64,000 nucleotides of DNA from positions 8,042-72,041 of IMG/VR virus record IMGVR_UViG_3300035682_000025, one strand, 5' to 3'. The position numbers were made by a program, and so were the translations under genes. Positions 15,405 through 63,233 of this stretch are shown here, in pieces. Each line of letters opens with the position of its first letter. Position 1 is the stretch's first letter. The notes beneath the pieces were generated by a model. The model was not told the origin of the DNA, ran no database searches, and worked only from the letters and a program-made list of their open reading frames with translations. Source of the DNA: a virus.

Positions 15405-15480
15405 ATAAATAGAAGTATAGGTCGCGGAGGTCGAGTCCCACCTATTCTAGAACTATCATTTTTTGGAAGGAGTCCCAGCA
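15405..15480 (+). promoter_or_regulatory. HEG-associated late promoter plus conserved leader (copy A)
   Basis: ATAAATAGAAGT...TCGCGG...CTCTAGAACT...AAGGAG, conserved with copies upstream of the HNH (29687-29765) and second GIY-YIG (62183-62267) genes. Confidence 0.6.
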
Positions 15481-16302
15481 ATGTCTATTTATACTGGTTT
15501 TGTTTACATTTGGTTTGATCGCAAAAAGAAGTGGTTTTGTATTGGTTCTCACATGGGTAGTTTGGATGATGGTTATACCTCATCAACTGGTTTCATGAAA
15601 AAGGCATACAAAAAGCGACCAAATGACTTTAGACGAAAAATACTTGAGTTTTACTATGGAAACGACAGCAGAGAACTATTCTCTATTGAACAAAAGTATC
15701 TTGACATGATAAAGGATGCAGAACTTTGTCTTGGTGAAAATAAGACAAATGGAACCATAAGATATTACAATGTAAAGAAGAAAGCATTAGGAATTTCTGG
15801 TATAGCCGCTTCTGTTATAAAGAAAAGCTATTGGAATAGTGAAATTGGTAGAAAAAAGAAGATGGAAATGAGTGAAAACATGAAGAAAAATAATCCATCA
15901 AAAAAGGGCGCGGTTCCTTGGAATAAAGGAAAGCGTTGTCCGTCAATTTCAATTGCAAAACTTGGAAAATCTATGAACTATACAGAAGAACAACGAAATC
16001 GTAGATCGGAAAGGTCCAAAGAGTTATGGGCCGATCCAGAATATCTAGAAAAAATGCGCAACCGCAAAAGCCCAGACTATGAAAAAATAGCAGACAAAAT
16101 GCGCGGCCGAAATCACGACGAAGATACTAAGGCTCGCATATCAGAATCTTTGCTGGGAAAACAAAAGACAGAAGAACACAAACTGGCAATGAAAGTATCT
16201 GCTAAAACAAGAAACCCATTTACATGCCCGCATTGTGGATTTCAAGGAAGGGGTGGTCATCGCTATCACTTCAATAACTGCAAATCTTTTCCCAAAGAAT
16301 AA
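15481..16302 (+). CDS. GIY-YIG homing endonuclease (Seg-like) with NUMOD-type DNA-binding repeats and C-terminal Zn finger
   Basis: N-terminal GFVYIWFDR...KWFCIGS GIY-YIG motif. Repeated NPSKKGAVPWNKGK / HDEDTKARISES NUMOD3-like motifs. CPHCG...HRYHFNNC at C-terminus. True start is ATG 15481 with RBS GGAAGGAG (the track start is a TTG). Confidence 0.8.
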   Translation: MSIYTGFVYIWFDRKKKWFCIGSHMGSLDDGYTSSTGFMKKAYKKRPNDFRRKILEFYYGNDSRELFSIEQKYLDMIKDAELCLGENKTNGTIRYYNVKKKALGISGIAASVIKKSYWNSEIGRKKKMEMSENMKKNNPSKKGAVPWNKGKRCPSISIAKLGKSMNYTEEQRNRRSERSKELWADPEYLEKMRNRKSPDYEKIADKMRGRNHDEDTKARISESLLGKQKTEEHKLAMKVSAKTRNPFTCPHCGFQGRGGHRYHFNNCKSFPKE

Positions 16303-24603: not shown

Positions 24604-24632
24604 GTTATAGACCGATTCGACTCACTAGTCAA
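24604..24632 (-). promoter_or_regulatory. Conserved early promoter P4
   Basis: Reverse complement reads TTGACTagtgagtcgaatcggtcTATAAC. Confidence 0.55.
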
Positions 24633-25036
24633 GCCATAATAGTTTCCAGTTTGGAGATCATGCCCTTCAGTTCTTCAATCCGTTCTTTGGTTGCAATCCA
24701 GTCACCGCTGTAGCTCCAACCGGACTTCATTGTACCTTCGATTTCCTTAGCAATTTTGGCGCGAGCTTCCCGGTCATTATCCCGAGCCAGTTCTTCGCGA
24801 AGTTTGTCAGCGTTTCCAATGCTCGGACCCCACTCATTTTTGTAGGAGTCTCCACTTTTGTTGAAACGGTATTCCTTGGGACCACAGCTGTGGTCACCAC
24901 AGGTGACAAAGATATGACCATGACCGTTGATCTTGGTAACAGTACCAAATTCAGCAATGGAAAGCCCACCATAGCGGGTGCGCTTGACAACAGCAACTTC
25001 TTTACCGACATGGGCATCAAAGATTCCGAAAGACAT
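24629..25036 (-). CDS. Hypothetical protein
   Basis: 135 aa, RBS GGAGAA. Confidence 0.45.
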   Translation of the reverse strand: MSFGIFDAHVGKEVAVVKRTRYGGLSIAEFGTVTKINGHGHIFVTCGDHSCGPKEYRFNKSGDSYKNEWGPSIGNADKLREELARDNDREARAKIAKEIEGTMKSGWSYSGDWIATKERIEELKGMISKLETIMA

Positions 25037-25065: not shown

Positions 25066-25094
25066 GTTATATACCGAATCATCTTACTAGTCAA
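25066..25094 (-). promoter_or_regulatory. Conserved early promoter P5
   Basis: Reverse complement reads TTGACTagtaagatgattcggtaTATAAC. Confidence 0.55.
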
Positions 25095-25101
25095 CCCGGT
25101 G

Positions 25102-25413
25102 TCAAGTATGTTCTACGATTTTTATTCCAGAAGCTTCGATTGCTCCCCTACAGATTGGGCAGGGTTTTGCCACCTTCTCTTCTCCATCTTTGCCAAACCG
25201 AGTCACCACAATTTTGTGTGCCCTGTCGAGTCTACGACACCGCAAAATTGCGTGAATTTCAGCATGAAGAAATTGTTTATCTGGCAACCCAACTTTCTCA
25301 GCGCACTTTGCTTGGTATGGGTGGGTTTTCACATAGCTGTTTTTGCCGATGGATAAAACTTTGCCGCGTTTGTCATAGATGATGGCAGTGATATCGAACC
25401 GCGCTTTCGTCAT
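25102..25413 (-). CDS. Cytidine/deoxycytidylate deaminase-family zinc enzyme
   Basis: HAEIHAI ... PCPICRGAI zinc-binding motifs of the CDA fold. Start re-assigned to ATG 25413, directly after the stop of the upstream gene. Confidence 0.65.
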   Translation of the reverse strand: MTKARFDITAIIYDKRGKVLSIGKNSYVKTHPYQAKCAEKVGLPDKQFLHAEIHAILRCRRLDRAHKIVVTRFGKDGEEKVAKPCPICRGAIEASGIKIVEHT

Positions 25414-25414
25414 A

Positions 25415-25657
25415 TCAGAGCAGACGAAACTTTTTGGAAAGAGTCTTGAATACCTTTTCCCAACCAAACTTCTCATAGAGCGACTTGAGTTCAGCGTCAG
25501 CCTCGGCATAGCCGTTCATCGTCAGACGGTTTGCATCAAGGACGAGTTCCAGAGCGATGGAGTTGTCACCATCGCACATGTCGTAAGCATCTGAGGCGAT
25601 GTAATCCCATGTTGCATAGATTGCGTTTTCAGTAGCACGGCTAATTGTAAGCATCAC
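25415..25657 (-). CDS. Hypothetical protein
   Basis: 80 aa. Confidence 0.4.
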   Translation of the reverse strand: MMLTISRATENAIYATWDYIASDAYDMCDGDNSIALELVLDANRLTMNGYAEADAELKSLYEKFGWEKVFKTLSKKFRLL

Positions 25658-25875
25658 TTGATTTCCTTGCCAGTTGTGATTTCGTAGATAGCTGCTTCGG
25701 CGAGTTTGATGAACATGTTCTTGATGCCTTCATCAAGGATGTCCCAATTATTATGGCTATTGGGATTTTCGACAAAGGATTTCTTCGCAAGGTCGAGAGC
25801 ATCTTCATAGGCATTCATCTTGGCGAACTCTTTCACTGTGTCGATGGCAGCACGAATCATTTCTTTGTCTGTCAT
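25654..25875 (-). CDS. Hypothetical protein
   Basis: 73 aa, ATGA-coupled. Confidence 0.4.
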   Translation of the reverse strand: MTDKEMIRAAIDTVKEFAKMNAYEDALDLAKKSFVENPNSHNNWDILDEGIKNMFIKLAEAAIYEITTGKEIK

Positions 25876-25899
25876 GTCTTATCTCCCGATTACTCTTGT

Positions 25900-25928
25900 A
25901 AGATAGACGATTCGTAATCAGATGTCAA
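25900..25928 (-). promoter_or_regulatory. Conserved early promoter P6
   Basis: Reverse complement reads TTGACAtctgattacgaatcgtcTATCTT. Confidence 0.5.
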
Positions 25929-26416
25929 CCTGGCTGATAAGCTTTCTTCAAATCTTCTTCGTGATAAAGCGATTTGTAGCACTTGTAGGCTACATCTATG
26001 CTGTCTCTAATTCGCTCTGCGCTCTGTTTCGGAAATCCATTTGCTCTAAGAAGTGCAAGAGAGCGCGTCTGCCATTCTTCGATTCCTATGGTTTGACAAC
26101 CAACAACTATGAAATCATGGGCAATAACGATTTCTTGCTCAAAGCCATGAATTGTTATTGGAGTCTTCGTCAATGTTACATTTCCATGAATCGTAGTCGC
26201 ATTCAAGAAAGCATTTCCACCAACCTTTGCGCCATCTTCCACAACTGATTTGTTTTGAAGAACCGCATTTCCAAAAATAGTTGAGCCTGTTGCCACTGTG
26301 CAGTTCTCTCCAATAACAGCATTATCAAGGATCTCGCAATCGTAGCCGACAAAAGCAGTTGGATGAACAGATGCCGTCTCGGCGACAAGTCCACCGCCAA
26401 TAGGATGCTTTATCAT
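25925..26416 (-). CDS. Hexapeptide-repeat (left-handed beta-helix) protein, acyltransferase/gamma-carbonic-anhydrase-like
   Basis: Repeated [LIV]G.N..[IV] hexapeptides (VGYDCEILDNAVIGENCTVATGSTIFGNAVLQNKSVVEDGAKVGGNAFL). Confidence 0.6.
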   Translation of the reverse strand: MIKHPIGGGLVAETASVHPTAFVGYDCEILDNAVIGENCTVATGSTIFGNAVLQNKSVVEDGAKVGGNAFLNATTIHGNVTLTKTPITIHGFEQEIVIAHDFIVVGCQTIGIEEWQTRSLALLRANGFPKQSAERIRDSIDVAYKCYKSLYHEEDLKKAYQPG

Positions 26417-27090
26417 AGTTTTACCTTCTCTCTTATTTCAATGAATTTTTCTATCCAGTCTTTTGACCGCTCGATGAACACAAGTGGCTCTCCATCATCA
26501 ACCATCATCAAAATGACGATTTTCTTTGGAAGCATTCCGGTTCGCTCAAATGTCATGTAGGAATAAGCTGAAGTTTGTGTAAAATATCCATCAATGTCTT
26601 CTCGCTTTTTCTCTCGCTTACTCGTCTTGAAATCTATAATGGATAGTTCGCCGTCCCACTCAGCGAGGCAATCTACCCGTCCAGCAACGCGCAGCTTGTC
26701 CGAATAGAGGGGTACTTCAAGTCCATAGACCTTAGAGACATGCTTGTCAAGGATGGGTCGTATCTGTCCAAATGACGCTATATTGACGGGCATATGACCC
26801 TTGGTATATGCTGGATTGTTTTTTAGATATTCTTCTGCAAGCTCATGAACAGCAGTTCCTCGCCGGGATGCCTGCTCTGTTACTTTGCGAGCTGCTTCTT
26901 CGCCAACCCTGGCCTTCCAACCATCTAGCCAAGATTTGTCAGACCCAGCGCCGATTACGGTCGTGACAGAAGGATATCTGTTGCCTTCTGGAGTGGTATA
27001 GATGCGACCAACACCTTCTACAATTTCATCCGTCAGTTGCGGAAAGACGGTCCAAATATCATGCTCAAATTTTCTCGTTGATGTCTTCAA
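26413..27090 (-). CDS. PD-(D/E)XK family nuclease (RecB/Cas4-like core, no Cys cluster)
   Basis: GRVDCLAEWDGELSIIDFKTSK carries the D...E.K catalytic triad arrangement. Confidence 0.6.
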   Translation of the reverse strand: MKTSTRKFEHDIWTVFPQLTDEIVEGVGRIYTTPEGNRYPSVTTVIGAGSDKSWLDGWKARVGEEAARKVTEQASRRGTAVHELAEEYLKNNPAYTKGHMPVNIASFGQIRPILDKHVSKVYGLEVPLYSDKLRVAGRVDCLAEWDGELSIIDFKTSKREKKREDIDGYFTQTSAYSYMTFERTGMLPKKIVILMMVDDGEPLVFIERSKDWIEKFIEIREKVKL

Positions 27091-27562
27091 TTTTCAAATA
27101 TCCAAATTTCATTCTAAAATCGGGAAGTTTTATCCCGCTAAAATCATAGTCTTTTCTCACATAGGACAGTGAAATATGTGGTATGTAGTCTGGCCATTGA
27201 TCCATAAGACCACGCCCCGCAAAATTATCTCGTATTTCTGATATATCAGGCGAGGAAACTACAAGAACGGGTATGTCGCTATTATCCCCAAGCAGTTTGA
27301 ATCTAGAGGAGAGTGCTTCGCCTTGTGTGAGGCGAAGCACTTCATTCTCTATATTAGATTGGTTGATAGAATAGAATATGGTCGTATGAAATTCAAAGTC
27401 TTCTGGTGGGTTGTCATTTCCACTATATGACTTTGTTATATCAAATCCATTTTCTTGGCACCAATTACGAAGATTTTGTTGAGTCTCATCATCATATACT
27501 ATACAGACATATTTTCTATTCATATTCACTTTCTCACGAAACATTCTAAAAGTCTTTATCAT
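27065..27562 (-). CDS. 2H phosphoesterase superfamily protein (LigT / 2-prime,3-prime-cyclic phosphodiesterase-like)
   Basis: Two H-x-T/S-x motifs (FHTTIFY and PHISLSY) at the expected spacing. Alternative start ATG 27523. Confidence 0.55.
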   Translation of the reverse strand: MIKTFRMFREKVNMNRKYVCIVYDDETQQNLRNWCQENGFDITKSYSGNDNPPEDFEFHTTIFYSINQSNIENEVLRLTQGEALSSRFKLLGDNSDIPVLVVSSPDISEIRDNFAGRGLMDQWPDYIPHISLSYVRKDYDFSGIKLPDFRMKFGYLKIEDINEKI

Positions 27563-27563
27563 T

Positions 27564-27965
27564 TTATACTGCTACACTTGGACCACCAATTGATACTTTT
27601 TCGCTTCCAGTGAGTACCGTGTGATCAAATGTAGTTCCTTTGTTGAACTTACTTCCTACCCGGACAACCTTCTTGCCGCCTATCGATACACTACCAGCAC
27701 ACAATGATGCGGCTGGCGCATGATCTATAGCTTCTTCCGTACATGGAAGACCGTCTGGGTGCAAATCCATAGAGTCTCCTTCTACAGCAACTAGTTTTCC
27801 TTCCACATATACCTTTGTGTTGGTGGTTGCTCCCGTAACTTGTATCGATTCAACATCCCAATTCCACTTAGACGGTAATGAGCTGCATATAGCACCTCTA
27901 TTACCGTCAGTACATTCTATATCACTGAAACCATCAGCCCAAGCTATGCCATTAGACAAGTTCAA
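27564..27965 (-). CDS. PAAR-repeat-like protein (gp5.4-like spike-tip candidate)
   Basis: Three V.V.GK.V.RVG-type repeats with a PAAS motif (HAPAASLCAGSVSIGGKKVVRVG). Confidence 0.4.
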   Translation of the reverse strand: MNLSNGIAWADGFSDIECTDGNRGAICSSLPSKWNWDVESIQVTGATTNTKVYVEGKLVAVEGDSMDLHPDGLPCTEEAIDHAPAASLCAGSVSIGGKKVVRVGSKFNKGTTFDHTVLTGSEKVSIGGPSVAV

Positions 27966-28689
27966 GCTCTTCTTCTGCTATAATAAATTCCTTCACAAGC
28001 CCAGATCGCACAACATCATCTACTGTAAATTGGATTGTACTAAAGCATTCCATTCTGTCAAGGATTTGTTTGAACTTACGAAGTCCAGAAACATCCATGC
28101 GGTTCTTTGAGCAATCAAGGTCATCCTGCTTAGTATCACCGCAGAATATAATTTTTGAACCTTCGCCGACACGCGTGATAATTGTTCTTAATTCGTCAAG
28201 CCGCATGTTCTGACATTCATCTACTATAATCACAGCATTGTCAAATGTCAAGCCACGAATGAATGATGTGCTCATAAAACGAATCATTTTTTTCTGTTTC
28301 ATTATGTCATATCCGTCAGCACGCTCAAATAGGTCGTTCACAATATCAACATAGGGTGCTTCGAAGTTTGCCATTTTTTCCTGCGCGCCTCCGGGCATGT
28401 GTCCCTGTTCTCTTGATTGAACTGATGACCGGATGATGATAATCTCCTTATATTCGTTTCTGTCCATAACGTCTTTTAGTGCCAGATAGAGGGAAATGTA
28501 TGTCTTTCCTGTTCCTGCCGATCCAATTGCGAGAAGATTTTGACTATCACTATATTCTTGGAATAGAATGCGTTGATTTTTAGTCATTGGTTCAATTTTC
28601 TTCATTGCAAATTTTGTATTTAGCAGATGATTAGTCTCCTTTTCCACTCTAGCTTTGGTTCTCTTTGTAAGACGTCTGTTTGCTGACAT
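27952..28689 (-). CDS. phoH: PhoH-like ATPase
   Basis: Walker A GSAGTGKTY, Walker B IIVDECQN, PhoH-family length and motifs. Confidence 0.85.
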   Translation of the reverse strand: MSANRRLTKRTKARVEKETNHLLNTKFAMKKIEPMTKNQRILFQEYSDSQNLLAIGSAGTGKTYISLYLALKDVMDRNEYKEIIIIRSSVQSREQGHMPGGAQEKMANFEAPYVDIVNDLFERADGYDIMKQKKMIRFMSTSFIRGLTFDNAVIIVDECQNMRLDELRTIITRVGEGSKIIFCGDTKQDDLDCSKNRMDVSGLRKFKQILDRMECFSTIQFTVDDVVRSGLVKEFIIAEEELELV

Positions 28690-28734: not shown

Positions 28735-28971
28735 TTACCACGTGTTGATAATGTTTTTTTTGTGATGGCCGGAGACGGTCTTGAGCACATCGCGGAACCC
28801 ATCATCGGGCCTCCGCTTTCCGAGACGCACGGAATCGCCGAGCGCAGGGAATCTGGTAAACACTTGTATTATGTTGGTGTTGTCATTGAGATACTGCTCA
28901 AATTCGGCGAACTTCATGTTCACCTCAAAGACTTCATCTGTGTCCTTGTTCATAGCGCTATAGATTGGCAT
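28735..28971 (-). CDS. Hypothetical protein
   Basis: 78 aa, RBS GGAGG, immediately downstream of a terminator hairpin. Confidence 0.4.
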   Translation of the reverse strand: MPIYSAMNKDTDEVFEVNMKFAEFEQYLNDNTNIIQVFTRFPALGDSVRLGKRRPDDGFRDVLKTVSGHHKKNIINTW

Positions 28972-28980
28972 CTATCCTCC

Positions 28981-29019
28981 AAAAAAATAGTGCGGTGTCC
29001 GAGTAACAGACACCGCACT
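28981..29019 (-). terminator. Rho-independent terminator (minus strand)
   Basis: GTGCGGTGTC...GACACCGCAC 10-bp stem followed by a T7 run on the minus strand. Confidence 0.7.
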
Positions 29020-29081
29020 TTGCTTTCATTACAAATCGACTGTTACAACTGTATTTATGCTTACAGTTGTCTCAGTCTAGG

Positions 29082-29686: not shown

Positions 29687-29765
29687 ATAAATAGAAGTGT
29701 CAATCGCGGTAGTGCAAATACCCACTGACTCTAGAACTTGTCACCTAAAAGAAGGAGCTCCAGCA
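29687..29765 (+). promoter_or_regulatory. HEG-associated late promoter plus conserved leader (copy B)
   Basis: GATAAATAGAAGTGTCAATCGCGG...CTCTAGAACT...AAGGAGCTCCAGCAATG. Conserved with copies A and C. Confidence 0.6.
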
Positions 29766-30710
29766 ATGGATATTTATCCGATTCTAGCATCAAAGCCTCA
29801 TAGCGAACATCATCTCAATAGATATATCAGGTTTATTGAGCAATGTCAACAGAATAACAAAAAGTCTTCCATAAAAACACATAGGCATCATATTTGCCCA
29901 AGAGCAAAAGATATGTTTCCAGAATATGAGTCGTTCGCCAAGAACAAATGGAATATGGCACGACTGACGCCACGACAGCATTTCATCGCCCACATAATGT
30001 TGTGGAAAGTATATCCAAACATTTCTTCGCAGTTCAATGCTGTTTGGCAAATGAAACACAGAAATAACGAACAAATGAATTCGCGACTATATGAAAGCGT
30101 TCTATTAGAGCATAGCAGAGTAACCTCAGCTAGACTAAAAAATACGGTTTCTGTATATGATGCAAATGGTTTATTTCATCGTATTCCAGTAAGTGAATAT
30201 GACGAAAGTAAGCATACACCCATTTCTGCAAATAGAGTAGTAGCAAAAATGGATAGCGGTGATTATGTTGTGGTTTCTGTAGATGAGTTTCGTTCTAGAA
30301 CTGATTTACACGGAACAACAAAAAATACGAAAGCATGGAATGATGGAAATACTGTTATGTATTCTTACAAAAATCCTGGCCCTGGTTTTACGAGGGGTCA
30401 TTTACCCCTCTCGGATGAGCAGAAGAAAATTCGTAATGAAAAGACTCGACAGACTATATCAAAAAGAACATCAGAAGAAAATAAACTAATCAGTATAAAG
30501 AGCTCTCAAGCTAAAAGAGAGTATTATGCCAATCTCTCACCAGAAGAAAGAAAAAAGCCGCAAGAGTTCAAAGACAAGTTGTCGGAAATCAGGAAAGAAA
30601 GCAATCCGGGTTTCAGAGCAACTCACGCCTGCCCTACTTGCGGCAAAGAAGGTCAGAAAGCTAATATTTCAAAGCATCACGGTCTCAATGGCGAAAAGTG
30701 TAGATGGTAG
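29766..30710 (+). CDS. HNH homing endonuclease (free-standing, Mob-like)
   Basis: HHICPRA ... NMARLTPRQHFIAHIMLW HNH motif. Lys/Glu-rich C-terminal DNA-binding tail with CPTCG. Antisense to the surrounding operon. ATG 29766 with RBS AAGGAG. Confidence 0.8.
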   Translation: MDIYPILASKPHSEHHLNRYIRFIEQCQQNNKKSSIKTHRHHICPRAKDMFPEYESFAKNKWNMARLTPRQHFIAHIMLWKVYPNISSQFNAVWQMKHRNNEQMNSRLYESVLLEHSRVTSARLKNTVSVYDANGLFHRIPVSEYDESKHTPISANRVVAKMDSGDYVVVSVDEFRSRTDLHGTTKNTKAWNDGNTVMYSYKNPGPGFTRGHLPLSDEQKKIRNEKTRQTISKRTSEENKLISIKSSQAKREYYANLSPEERKKPQEFKDKLSEIRKESNPGFRATHACPTCGKEGQKANISKHHGLNGEKCRW

Positions 30711-62267: not shown

Positions 62268-63233
62268 ATGGCTATTTATCAACCGTATTTCTACATCATC
62301 CAAGATAAGCGCAACGGCATCTACTATGCCGGCGTCAAATGGGGGAAAGATGCAAACCCATCTACTTTTATGGCAGAAGGTGGCTACACGACTTCATCAA
62401 ATACAATCAACGACCTCATTAGACAGTATGACTTGAGCACCTTTATCATCCGCAAGATCAGAACTTTTGAAACTGCTGAAGAAGCTCAAGATTACGAAAC
62501 CAGGTTTCTTCAAAAGGTGGATGCCAAGAATCATCCAAGATTCTATAATGGCCACAATAACGATTGGATTCTATCCCCGAAAAAACTAAAACTTCTTATG
62601 ATAGAAAGGTATGGGGTCTCATATGCGTTACAAAATAACGAAACGAGAGAAAAAAGGTTTAATACCATTGAAGAAAGATATGGCGTAAGACATCCAATTC
62701 AGTCTGATATCATCAAGAGTAAAATGACCAATACCATGCGCGAAAGATATGAAGTGAGCTGGGCTTCACAGTGTCAAGAAATCAGAAATAAAATGACCGA
62801 AACTACAAAAGAGAGATATGGCGTAGAGTATCCAGCACAATCTATAGAAATTAGAAACAAAATGAAAAAAACAAACCTAGAAATAAGAGGCGTTGAATAC
62901 CCAACACAATCAGAAGAAGTTATGAATAAACTAAGAGAAACCAATTTTGAAAAATATGGTGTGGGAAATGTATTTCAAGCAGATGAAATAAAAGAAAAAA
63001 TAAGAAACAAAAATCTAGAAACTATGGGAGTCGAAAACCCATTCCAATCAGAAGAAATAAAAAGTAATATACGAGCTATAATGACTGCTAGGCACAATCG
63101 AGTGGAAGTTCAAGAAATAAAAAAATATGTAAAAAAGTTCAAGATAAAACTCCAAAGAAGCTGGAACAAAAAGCCTGATGAGTTTATTCAAAACCTACTT
63201 AGTAACCTAAAAAAAGAATACGGCGAAATATAA
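62268..63233 (+). CDS. GIY-YIG homing endonuclease with tandem ERYGVxYPxQSxEI repeats
   Basis: N-terminal YFYIIQDKRNGIYYAGVKWG GIY-YIG motif. At least seven repeats of about 20 aa ([EK][RK]YGV[EN].P.QS.EI.NK). Confidence 0.7.
   Translation: MAIYQPYFYIIQDKRNGIYYAGVKWGKDANPSTFMAEGGYTTSSNTINDLIRQYDLSTFIIRKIRTFETAEEAQDYETRFLQKVDAKNHPRFYNGHNNDWILSPKKLKLLMIERYGVSYALQNNETREKRFNTIEERYGVRHPIQSDIIKSKMTNTMRERYEVSWASQCQEIRNKMTETTKERYGVEYPAQSIEIRNKMKKTNLEIRGVEYPTQSEEVMNKLRETNFEKYGVGNVFQADEIKEKIRNKNLETMGVENPFQSEEIKSNIRAIMTARHNRVEVQEIKKYVKKFKIKLQRSWNKKPDEFIQNLLSNLKKEYGEI

What the first reader, a model, noticed from the sequence alone, without database searches (positions are those of the whole stretch)
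25102..28689. Compact early operon combining PhoH, a PAAR-like protein, 2H phosphoesterase, PD-(D/E)XK nuclease, hexapeptide-repeat protein and a cytidine/dCMP deaminase
The genes 27952-28689 (phoH), 27564-27965 (PAAR-like), 27065-27562 (2H), 26413-27090 (PD-(D/E)XK nuclease) and 25925-26416 (left-handed beta-helix acyltransferase-like) overlap each other by 4-26 nt, which suggests co-translation. Two small ORFs and a CDA-fold deaminase follow. A PAAR-like spike-tip protein outside the baseplate module, and a nuclease plus deaminase plus acyltransferase-like set co-transcribed with PhoH, is an unusual combination. It could represent nucleic-acid modification or anti-restriction functions (deaminase and nuclease) rather than simple nucleotide salvage.
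Basis: partly seen in the sequence, partly recalled or inferred. Interest (0 to 1): 0.55.

Follow-up and report, generated by a model that had tools for sequence, protein, structure and literature searches.

The report
PhoH gene string with Acb1 and PAAR
This is a real, tightly packed gene string in a T4-like phage, but it is a conserved backbone (PhoH plus an exonuclease) with unrelated known-type genes inserted, including the spike-tip protein and an anti-CBASS enzyme, not a new nucleic-acid-modification system.

Summary
Three details need correcting. The deaminase is 103 aa (25102-25413), not the 135-aa ORF. PAAR and the 2H gene abut without overlapping. The string starts one gene earlier, at 28971.

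The "2H phosphoesterase" is an Acb1 (T4 gene 57B) homologue, an anti-CBASS cyclic-oligonucleotide phosphodiesterase. The PAAR protein's best solved match is T4 gp5.4, the spike tip. It is the only PAAR ORF in the window, and its counterpart is the only one in the complete genome of the relative phiM7. The nuclease is an MGME1/RecB-type exonuclease.

In the cyanophage S-PM2 and phage Melnitz, the small regulator-like gene, PhoH and this exonuclease are adjacent. PAAR plus Acb1 is therefore a two-gene insert at that junction. The same junction holds homing endonucleases or reverse-strand genes in relatives.

The hexapeptide protein, the two small ORFs and the deaminase are variable accessories. 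The hexapeptide protein and the deaminase do not always co-occur. The deaminase model resembles free-nucleotide deaminases, and the hexapeptide protein lacks a conserved catalytic histidine.

A conserved late-promoter-like box lies upstream, so "early operon" is unsupported.

Verdict: a mosaic of new members of known kinds, of low to moderate interest.

The parts
28972..29081 (-). Upstream intergenic region. It contains a late-promoter-like CATAAATA box (29059-29052), then a 13-bp hairpin plus T-run (29019-28982), then GGAGG and the ATG of the 78-aa gene.
   Evidence: Terminator-like hit. ATAAATA lies 27-59 nt upstream of seven head and tail gene starts. The motif, hairpin and RBS occur in the same order in L003, L006, L007 and L008, with compensatory stem changes.
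28735..28971 (-). 78-aa gene at the head of the string (phrog_385, labelled 'transcriptional regulator'). It has no Cys and no Pfam hit.
   Evidence: phrog_385 at 3.6e-16. Present upstream of phoH in all relatives and in phiM7. 39% identical over the N-terminal 33 aa to S-PM2p196.
27952..28689 (-). PhoH-like P-loop ATPase, 245 aa, with Walker A motif GSAGTGKT.
   Evidence: PF02562 at 6e-48 and phrog_170 at 6.5e-79. 48-49% identical to S-PM2 and Melnitz PhoH.
27564..27959 (-). gp5.4-like PAAR spike-tip protein, 131 aa, TTG start, overlapping phoH by 8 nt. Invariant residues are H67, H80, H113, C16, C25, C73 and C87.
   Evidence: phrog_281 at 7e-12; PF05488 at 26.8 bits against a cut-off of 27. 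The family profile's best PDB hit is T4 gp5.4 (5iv5, 4ku0), E = 0.004. hhalign against T4 gp5.4 gives 90.8% probability. It is the only PAAR ORF in the window and in the phiM7 genome.
27065..27562 (-). Acb1-family 2H phosphodiesterase (T4 57B homologue), 165 aa. The HxT/HxS tetrad is H59, T61, H129 and S131.
   Evidence: PF23474 at 48.9 bits, above the cut-off of 27. A profile search finds only Acb1 structures: 7t26 at 4.9e-6 and 9q2g at 8.7e-5. hhalign against T4 57B gives 92.9% probability. The tetrad is invariant in six homologues.
26413..27090 (-). MGME1/RecB-type PD-(D/E)XK exonuclease, 225 aa, TTG start, overlapping acb1 by 26 nt. Motifs are D140, D153-x-K155 and Q172xxxY176.
   Evidence: phrog_298 at 5.9e-71. 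MGME1 structures at 2.4e-9. The motifs are invariant. 42-43% identical to the exonucleases that directly follow PhoH in S-PM2 and Melnitz.
25925..26416 (-). 163-aa protein with about 90 aa of hexapeptide left-handed beta-helix followed by a conserved 75-80-aa C-terminal domain of unknown fold. It has a 4-nt ATGA overlap with the exonuclease gene. It is an accessory gene, absent in L003, L006 and phiM7.
   Evidence: PF00132 at 5.9e-9. The His of 'IAHDF' is replaced by P, E or D in homologues. The C-terminal domain has no PDB sequence match. Only three real cluster representatives were found among 1.84 billion.
25654..25875 (-). 73-aa acidic ORFan, preceded by a sigma-70-like box (25928-25900) and a GGGAG RBS.
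   Evidence: No Pfam, PHROG or NCBIfam hit. Found only in the closest relative L006, at 92% identity.
25415..25654 (-). 79-aa acidic ORFan with a TGATG stop/start overlap.
   Evidence: No family hit. Found only in L006, at 97% identity.
25102..25413 (-). 103-aa minimal CDA-fold zinc deaminase with HAE at residues 50-52 and PCPIC at 84-88.
   Evidence: PF00383 at 35.8 bits against a cut-off of 25. 696 homologues; those listed are about 103 aa and 66-98% identical. AF2 pLDDT is 81.8. Foldseek matches blasticidin-S deaminase, dCMP deaminases and cytidine deaminases and viral dCMP-type deaminases.

Best explanation
The stretch is a co-oriented, translationally compact run of genes in the replication and nucleotide-metabolism arm of a T4-superfamily myovirus. 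It is a mosaic, not one functional system.

The backbone is old. A small regulator-like gene, PhoH and an MGME1/RecB-type exonuclease are adjacent in distant T4-like phages.

In this clade and in the rhizobial Emdodecavirus phages, two genes were inserted at the PhoH|exonuclease junction:
1. A gp5.4-type PAAR protein. It most likely caps the gp5 spike of the baseplate and binds a metal through conserved His and Cys residues. It appears to be the phage's only spike-tip gene (inferred from phiM7 and from the window).
2. An Acb1 2H phosphodiesterase. It most likely hydrolyses the 3'-5' cyclic oligonucleotide signals of CBASS-type defences, using its HxT/HxS tetrad. This is inferred from family membership.

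Downstream of the exonuclease is a variable slot. It holds a hexapeptide-repeat protein that is probably not an acyltransferase, two acidic ORFans, and a 103-aa deaminase. The deaminase most likely acts on free cytosine nucleotides or nucleosides to feed dTTP synthesis.

The products act independently. The tight packing reflects phage genome economy. Transcription probably combines a late-type promoter upstream of the 78-aa gene with sigma-70-like boxes inside and after the string.
For: - Phage type: gp15, terminase, sheath, tube, portal, protease, scaffold and major capsid protein in T4 order. Early-type genes fill the rest of the window.
- Backbone: the regulator-like gene, PhoH and the exonuclease are adjacent in S-PM2 and Melnitz. 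The window's PhoH is 48% identical and its exonuclease 42-43% identical to theirs.
- Insert: PhoH-PAAR-Acb1-exonuclease occurs in L003, L004, L005, L006, L008, L009, L015 and phiM7. At the same junction phiM7 carries homing endonucleases, and L007 and L008 carry reverse-strand genes.
- PAAR is the gp5.4 homologue. It is the sole PAAR ORF in the window and in phiM7's 188 kb. phiM7's baseplate module has none.
- T4 gene 5.4 is late-expressed and its product binds metal through 3 His and 1 Cys (PMC12407873). Here H67, H80, H113 and four Cys are invariant.
- Acb1. The mechanism comes from PMC9117128.
- Exonuclease motifs and the MGME1 match.
- Variable tail.
- Deaminase fold neighbours.
- LbH catalytic His not conserved.
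- Promoter-like elements.
Against: - No expression, virion-proteome or enzymatic data exist for any of these proteins.
- The PAAR structure prediction failed (pLDDT 35). The Pfam score is 0.2 bits under the cut-off.
- The window does not include the baseplate module, so a second, divergent tip protein in this phage cannot be excluded. My PAAR HMM was built from these families only.
- The late-promoter-like box lies upstream of a terminator-like hairpin, which is hard to reconcile with simple late transcription.
- Viral 2H phosphodiesterases differ widely in substrate despite conserved active sites (bioRxiv 10.1101/2025.08.21.671373). The Acb1 substrate here is therefore not established.
- The deaminase reaches no curated family cut-off and has no PDB sequence hit.
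- The persistent PAAR-Acb1 adjacency could mean a functional link that I am dismissing.
Confidence: 0.68

Rival explanations
1. The region is a counter-defence island. Acb1, the variable genes downstream (the LbH protein, the two acidic ORFans and perhaps the deaminase) and the nuclease together neutralise host immunity. In this view the variable slot is an anti-defence hotspot.
For: Acb1 family membership. Presence and absence of LbH, s73 and s79 vary between close relatives, which is typical of accessory and anti-defence loci. The two ORFans are small, acidic and without homologues in any library. The junction repeatedly accepts insertions.
Against: The exonuclease belongs to the conserved backbone and resembles a replication exonuclease. 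The deaminase is widespread in unrelated large phages and resembles nucleotide-metabolism enzymes. No other gene matches a known anti-defence family. PAAR and PhoH have no defence role.
Confidence: 0.2
2. The deaminase, the nuclease and the hexapeptide 'acyltransferase' form a nucleic-acid modification or anti-restriction pathway co-transcribed with PhoH.
For: The genes are co-oriented and tightly spaced. The nuclease-LbH ATGA overlap is conserved in three lineages. The deaminase active-site motifs are intact.
Against: LbH and the deaminase are not co-inherited. The LbH family lacks a conserved catalytic His, and its conserved part is a non-LbH C-terminal domain. A sigma-70-like box and a 49-nt gap separate LbH from the deaminase unit. 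The deaminase's fold neighbours are free-nucleotide enzymes. No APOBEC, TadA or toxin deaminase appears in the top 40.
Confidence: 0.05
3. The PAAR protein is not a virion spike tip. It is either an intracellular protein with another role or a carrier that delivers the adjacent Acb1 into the cell at injection, as T6SS PAAR proteins carry effectors.
For: The PAAR gene is outside any structural module and only 1 nt upstream of acb1. The pair stays together in phiM7 even though homing endonucleases flank it. The family has a longer N-terminal segment, with two invariant Cys, than T4 gp5.4.
Against: The closest solved homologue is the T4 spike tip. It is the only PAAR in a complete related genome. 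L007 keeps a PAAR at this site without Acb1. T4 Acb1 was identified by fractionating lysates of infected cells (PMC9117128), and packaging of Acb1 has not been reported in the papers read.
Confidence: 0.05

Closest known systems
T4 gp5.4 (PAAR-repeat spike-tip protein; PDB 4KU0, 5IV5)
   Same: It is the best solved match of the family profile, and hhalign gives 90.8% probability with 32% identity over 71 columns. His and Cys residues are conserved, consistent with a 3His+1Cys metal site. It is a small single-domain protein.
   Different: It is 131 aa against 97 aa, with a longer N-terminal part. T4 5.4 lies between genes 5 and 6 in the baseplate cluster. Here the gene lies between phoH and acb1 among replication genes, on the strand opposite the head and tail genes.
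T4 Acb1 (gene 57B) and phage FBB1 Acb1 (PDB 7T26), anti-CBASS 2H phosphodiesterases
   Same: The Pfam Acb1 score is above the cut-off. The HxT/HxS tetrad aligns with H44/T46/H113/T115. hhalign gives 92.9% against T4 57B.
   Different: Identity to T4 57B is only about 26%. The second motif is HxS, not HxT. Substrate range is untested. In T4, 57B sits next to 57A and gene 1, 6.4 kb from gene 5.4 on the other strand.
PhoH-exonuclease backbone of Kyanoviridae (S-PM2 p196-p198; Melnitz genes 80-83)
   Same: The order is the same: small regulator-like gene, PhoH, PD-(D/E)XK exonuclease. PhoH is 48% identical and the exonuclease 42-43% identical.
   Different: In those phages PhoH and the exonuclease are adjacent or separated by a 46-aa ORF. 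Here PAAR and Acb1 lie between them.
Human MGME1 (PDB 5ZYT, 5ZYU), a RecB-type PD-(D/E)XK ssDNA exonuclease
   Same: E = 2.4e-9 over residues 37-162. It shares the D...DxK motifs, and the phage family also has QxxxY.
   Different: The phage protein is shorter. Its biological role (replication or recombination end processing versus host DNA degradation) is untested. It is not Cas4: it scores 32 bits against a cut-off of 65 and has no Fe-S cysteine cluster.
Viral CMP/dCMP-type deaminases (T4 Cd class; PBCV-1 bi-DCD, PDB 7FH4; human DCTD, PDB 2W4L)
   Same: It has the CDA fold with HAE and PCxxC zinc ligands. These are among its Foldseek neighbours.
   Different: It is only 103 aa, with no N-terminal helix. 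TM-scores are only 0.5-0.6. It reaches no curated family cut-off. It belongs to an uncharacterised ~100-aa family found in jumbo phages and cyanophages.

Membership tests
PAAR / gp5.4 spike-tip proteins | PAAR-repeat domain recognised by family profiles | tested here: met
   phrog_281 at 7e-12. hhalign against T4 gp5.4 gives 90.8% probability, E = 1.2e-6. The PDB profile search puts gp5.4 on top. Caveat: Pfam PF05488 scores 26.8 bits, just under the cut-off of 27.
PAAR / gp5.4 spike-tip proteins | Metal site at the cone tip formed by 3 His and 1 Cys (PMC12407873) | tested here: inconclusive
   H67, H80, H113 and four Cys are invariant in 22 homologues. Two of the His align with His of gp5.4. 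The geometry could not be checked because the model failed (pLDDT 35).
PAAR / gp5.4 spike-tip proteins | Gene in the baseplate module next to the spike gene, with late expression | tested here: not met
   The gene lies between phoH and acb1, with no baseplate gene in the 64-kb window. phiM7 has the same arrangement. A late-promoter-like box lies 80 nt upstream of the string's first gene and about 1.1 kb upstream of the PAAR start, but its use is unproven.
PAAR / gp5.4 spike-tip proteins | One copy present on the spike of the virion | not testable with these tools
   This needs virion proteomics or cryo-EM.
Acb1 anti-CBASS 2H phosphodiesterase | Family profile above the curated cut-off, and similarity to characterised Acb1 | tested here: met
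   PF23474 at 48.9 bits against a cut-off of 27. The only significant PDB hits are Acb1 structures. hhalign against T4 57B gives 92.9%.
Acb1 anti-CBASS 2H phosphodiesterase | Catalytic HxT/HxT tetrad (PMC9117128) | tested here: met
   H59-T-T61 and H129-I-S131 are invariant in six homologues and align with the Acb1 motifs. The second motif is HxS.
Acb1 anti-CBASS 2H phosphodiesterase | [quoted passage not shown] | not testable with these tools
   This needs an enzymatic assay and plaque assays.
RecB/MGME1-type PD-(D/E)XK exonuclease | Motifs D, (D/E)xK and QxxxY | tested here: met
   D140, D153-F-K155 and Q172...Y176 are invariant. MGME1 structures match at 2.4e-9.
Cas4 | Curated score cut-off and a four-Cys Fe-S cluster | tested here: not met
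   TIGR00372 scores 32.4 bits against a cut-off of 65. No Cys is among the invariant columns of the six-sequence alignment.
Hexapeptide-repeat acyltransferases (LpxA/LpxD-like) | Left-handed beta-helix hexapeptide repeats | tested here: met
   PF00132 scores 35.7 bits against a cut-off of 27. There are generic LbH matches to LpxA, gamma-carbonic anhydrases and others.
Hexapeptide-repeat acyltransferases (LpxA/LpxD-like) | Conserved catalytic His, and a curated family score | tested here: not met
   The His of 'IAHDF' is P, E or D in homologues. All NCBIfam scores are 16-36 bits against cut-offs of 160-625. The LbH part is only about 5 coils long.
CMP/dCMP-type (CDA-fold) zinc deaminases | H(C)AE and PCxxC zinc-binding motifs, and the CDA fold | tested here: met
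   H50-A-E52 and C85/C88 are invariant. PF00383 scores 35.8 bits against a cut-off of 25. The AF2 model has pLDDT 81.8 and its top Foldseek hits are CDA-fold deaminases.
dCMP deaminase proper (T4 Cd / ComEB equivalogs) | Curated equivalog score and an allosteric or extra zinc site | tested here: not met
   No dCMP-deaminase NCBIfam hit; the only hit is cytidine deaminase PRK08298, at 18 bits against a cut-off of 129. No PDB sequence hit. At 103 aa there is no room for the regulatory elements.
PhoH-like ATPase | PhoH domain and Walker A motif | tested here: met
   PF02562 scores 163.5 bits against a cut-off of 27. GSAGTGKT is in the sequence. It does not reach the bacterial PhoH equivalog cut-off (100 against 380).

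The most novel reading that the evidence does not exclude
The PAAR and Acb1 genes were captured together and stay adjacent: 1 nt apart here, and still paired in phiM7 between two homing endonucleases. The most novel reading not excluded is that they work as a pair. The spike-tip protein would carry or recruit Acb1 so that the anti-CBASS enzyme enters with the spike at injection, as T6SS PAAR proteins carry effectors encoded next to them. That would be a pre-emptive, virion-delivered counter-defence.
Probability: 0.04. Interest if true: 0.75.

Novelty: new member of a known kind. Interest (0 to 1): 0.27.

Why it matters
The practical value is annotation. In this large uncultured clade of T4-like phages, and in the rhizobial Emdodecavirus phages, genes labelled "RNA ligase" or "hypothetical" next to phoH are an Acb1-type anti-CBASS enzyme and the spike-tip protein. 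This suggests the hosts use cyclic-oligonucleotide signalling defences.

It also shows that a virion component can sit outside the structural modules in T4-like genomes. This matters for module-based annotation and for engineering.

It identifies the PhoH|exonuclease junction as a recurrent insertion site. It also flags two uncharacterised but widespread small families that are cheap to test biochemically: a 103-aa deaminase and an LbH protein with a novel C-terminal domain.

Nothing here points to a new kind of system.

Tried and rejected
- Nucleotide searches against cultured phages found nothing at the megablast level. At blastn level only short phoH segments matched.
- tblastn of the PAAR protein against cultured phages, and a scan of IMG/VR with PAAR peptide patterns, found nothing. 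The phiM7 PAAR found only its own genus.
- AlphaFold2 of the PAAR protein with 22 homologues failed (pLDDT 35), so no fold search was run on it.
- I considered that the LbH protein might be a truncated LpxA, because of an 'IAHDC'-like motif and an 'RRGFS'-like C-terminal stretch. I rejected this. The His is not conserved, and the C-terminal match to LpxA scores -1 bit.
- I considered a second late promoter directly upstream of PAAR in lineages where reverse-strand genes intervene. It is present in L007. In L008 and L009 the ATAAATA lies inside the reverse gene, so this is not a general feature.
- TATAAATA itself is not enriched in the window. Only the 7-mer ATAAATA shows the positional pattern.
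- Rfam found no RNA family in 22-32 kb.
- L006 at first appeared to lack the deaminase. This is a scaffold gap of Ns.
- NCBIfam gave no hit above any curated cut-off.

Full report
**Context.** The window comes from a T4-superfamily myovirus. Positions 3.3-15.3 kb (+ strand) carry the sheath stabiliser gp15, small and large terminase, sheath, tube, portal, prohead protease, scaffold and major capsid protein, in T4 order. From 16 kb to 64 kb most of the large ORFs are on the minus strand. They are replication and nucleotide-metabolism genes: RNaseH-type exonuclease, dNMP kinase, RuvC-like resolvase, two RNA ligases, DNA ligase, Dda helicase and 5'-nucleotidases. There is no nucleotide-level match to any cultured phage. 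Identical proteins occur on metagenome contigs of up to 72 kb.

**The observation.** Independent gene calls on an identical contig give products of 78, 245, 131, 165, 225, 163, 73, 79 and 103 aa. The family assignments hold:
- PhoH: PF02562, 6e-48.
- PAAR: phrog_281, 7e-12. PF05488 scores 26.8 bits against a cut-off of 27.
- 2H: Pfam Acb1, 48.9 bits against 27.
- PD-(D/E)XK: phrog_298, 6e-71.
- Hexapeptide: PF00132, 5.9e-9.
- Deaminase: PF00383, 8e-9.

Several details need correcting:
- PAAR starts at the TTG at 27959, giving an 8-nt overlap with phoH.
- PAAR and the 2H gene are 1 nt apart and do not overlap.
- The 26-nt and 4-nt overlaps are real and recur in relatives.
- The deaminase is 25102-25413 (103 aa).
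- A 49-nt spacer with a TTGACA-17-TATCTT box separates the LbH gene from the small ORFs.
- The string begins with a 78-aa gene at 28971, just after a 13-bp hairpin with a T-run.

**The 2H gene is Acb1.**
- A profile of six homologues finds only Acb1 crystal structures in the PDB: 7t26 at 4.9e-6 and 9q2g at 8.7e-5.
- hhalign against T4 gene 57B gives 92.9% probability.
- The catalytic tetrad is invariant: H59, T61, H129 and S131.
- Viral 2H enzymes vary in substrate (bioRxiv 10.1101/2025.08.21.671373). The family is shown here; the substrate is inferred.

**The PAAR gene is the gp5.4 homologue.**
- The family profile's best solved matches are T4 gp5.4, labelled "tip of the central spike" (5iv5 and 4ku0, E = 0.004, residues 44-124 against 23-96 of 97).
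- hhalign gives 90.8% probability.
- Three His and four Cys are invariant. This fits the 3His+1Cys metal site of gp5.4 (PMC12407873).
- The structure prediction failed, so the fold itself is not confirmed.
- An HMM built from three divergent PAAR subfamilies finds one PAAR ORF in the 64-kb window.
- In the complete 188-kb phiM7 genome it finds only gp195, which sits between phoH and the 2H gene. phiM7's baseplate module (gp91-gp101) has none.
- In T4, gene 5.4 lies between genes 5 and 6, and 57B is 6.4 kb away on the other strand.
It is still the best candidate for the actual spike tip and is not an extra PAAR.

**The nuclease and the backbone.** The nuclease matches human MGME1 at 2.4e-9 and has the D, DxK and QxxxY motifs of RecB-type exonucleases. 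In the cyanophage S-PM2 the order is regulator-like p196, PhoH, exonuclease. In the Methylophilales phage Melnitz it is PhoH, a 46-aa ORF, then the PD-(D/E)XK nuclease. The window's PhoH is 48% identical to these and its exonuclease 42-43% identical. PhoH plus exonuclease is therefore an old T4-like syntenic pair.

**The insert.** PAAR plus Acb1 is a two-gene insert between PhoH and the exonuclease. The insert is found in the uncultured relatives L003, L004, L005, L006, L008, L009 and L015, and in phiM7. The same junction also holds GIY-YIG and HNH homing endonucleases in phiM7 and reverse-strand genes in L007 and L008. In L007 a different PAAR and a 163-aa ORF replace the pair, leaving a 24-codon Acb1 remnant.

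**The variable tail.**
- The LbH protein is present only in the window phage, L007 and L008.
- The two acidic ORFans occur only in L006, the closest relative.
- The deaminase is in L006, L003 and L008, but not in L007 or the phiM7 locus.
- The LbH family's only candidate catalytic His is not conserved.
- The best-conserved part of the LbH protein is a C-terminal 75-80-aa domain. It has no PDB sequence match and only three real cluster representatives among 1.84 billion. It is not a credible acyltransferase, and its function is unknown.
- The deaminase belongs to a strongly conserved ~103-aa family: 696 metagenome hits, plus 203 cultured-phage records that include phiKZ-like and Rak2-like jumbo phages and cyanomyoviruses.
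- Its AF2 model (pLDDT 81.8) is closest to blasticidin-S deaminase, human dCMP deaminase, tetrameric cytidine deaminases, the PBCV-1 dCMP/dCTP deaminase and viral dCMP-type deaminases. No polynucleotide-editing deaminase appears among the top hits.
- It reaches no curated family cut-off. I infer that it acts on a free cytosine nucleotide or nucleoside, with moderate confidence.

**Transcription.** The 7-mer ATAAATA lies 27-59 nt upstream of the starts of gp15, sheath, tube, a 489-aa gene, protease, scaffold and the major capsid protein. From my own knowledge, this matches the T4 late promoter TATAAATA and the cyanophage NATAAATA. One copy lies 80 nt upstream of the 78-aa gene. It is invariant in five lineages whose proteins are only 59-76% identical, and it reads TATAAATA in L003. 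In every lineage a hairpin with compensatory changes, a T-run and the RBS follow. T4 gene 5.4 is a late gene (PMC12407873), so late expression of this string would fit a virion role for PAAR. The hairpin downstream of the box is unexplained. The label "early operon" is not supported either way.

**Verdict.** There is no evidence for a joint nucleic-acid-modification function. The locus is a mosaic of new members of known families on a conserved backbone.

Noticed in passing
window 28972-29081 (- strand): A late-promoter-like ATAAATA box is followed by a conserved GTAACA..TTGTAATGAAA stretch, a 13-bp hairpin with a T-run, and then the RBS. The order is conserved in four other lineages, with compensatory stem changes. 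A promoter-like box upstream of a terminator-like hairpin is unexplained.
   Followed up: partly
window 15463-16302, 29697-30710, 62268-63233 (+ strand): Three homing-endonuclease-like ORFs are present. Two are inserted against the direction of the surrounding minus-strand genes, and one follows the major capsid gene. Each has an ATAAATA box 58-85 nt upstream (15405, 29687, 62183). The one at 29697-30710 splits two NT5C-type nucleotidase paralogues that are adjacent in relatives.
   Followed up: partly
window 27311-27342: A perfect 13-14-bp hairpin lies inside the Acb1 coding sequence. It is kept in the closest relative L006, is weaker in L008, and is absent in L003 and phiM7. It may be chance or a lineage-specific RNA element.
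   Followed up: partly
window 25102-25413: The 103-aa deaminase belongs to an uncharacterised minimal CDA-fold family. The family is found in phiKZ-like and Rak2-like jumbo phages, Aeromonas phages and cyanomyoviruses. Members are annotated inconsistently as dCMP deaminase, TadA or hypothetical. It has no curated family and no PDB sequence hit.
   Followed up: partly
window 25928-26167 (C-terminal half of the LbH protein): This conserved 75-80-aa domain follows a short hexapeptide beta-helix. An exhaustive search of 1.84 billion representatives found only three real clusters, all with the same architecture.
   Followed up: partly
L007 4487-5352: In this lineage the 131-aa PAAR plus Acb1 pair is replaced by a 163-aa ORF of unknown function plus a 101-aa canonical PAAR. 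A 24-codon remnant of the Acb1 3' end is left in front of the exonuclease gene.
   Followed up: partly
window 24629-25036 and about 25066-25094: A 135-aa protein has a weak ProQ C-terminal-like match (PF24203, 22.9 bits against a cut-off of 27). It has its own TTGACT-17-TATAAC promoter-like box immediately after the deaminase stop codon.
   Followed up: no
window 25415-25875: Two small acidic ORFans (73 and 79 aa) have no match in Pfam, PHROGs or NCBIfam. They are shared only with the closest relative. They are typical candidates for host-takeover or anti-defence proteins.
   Followed up: no
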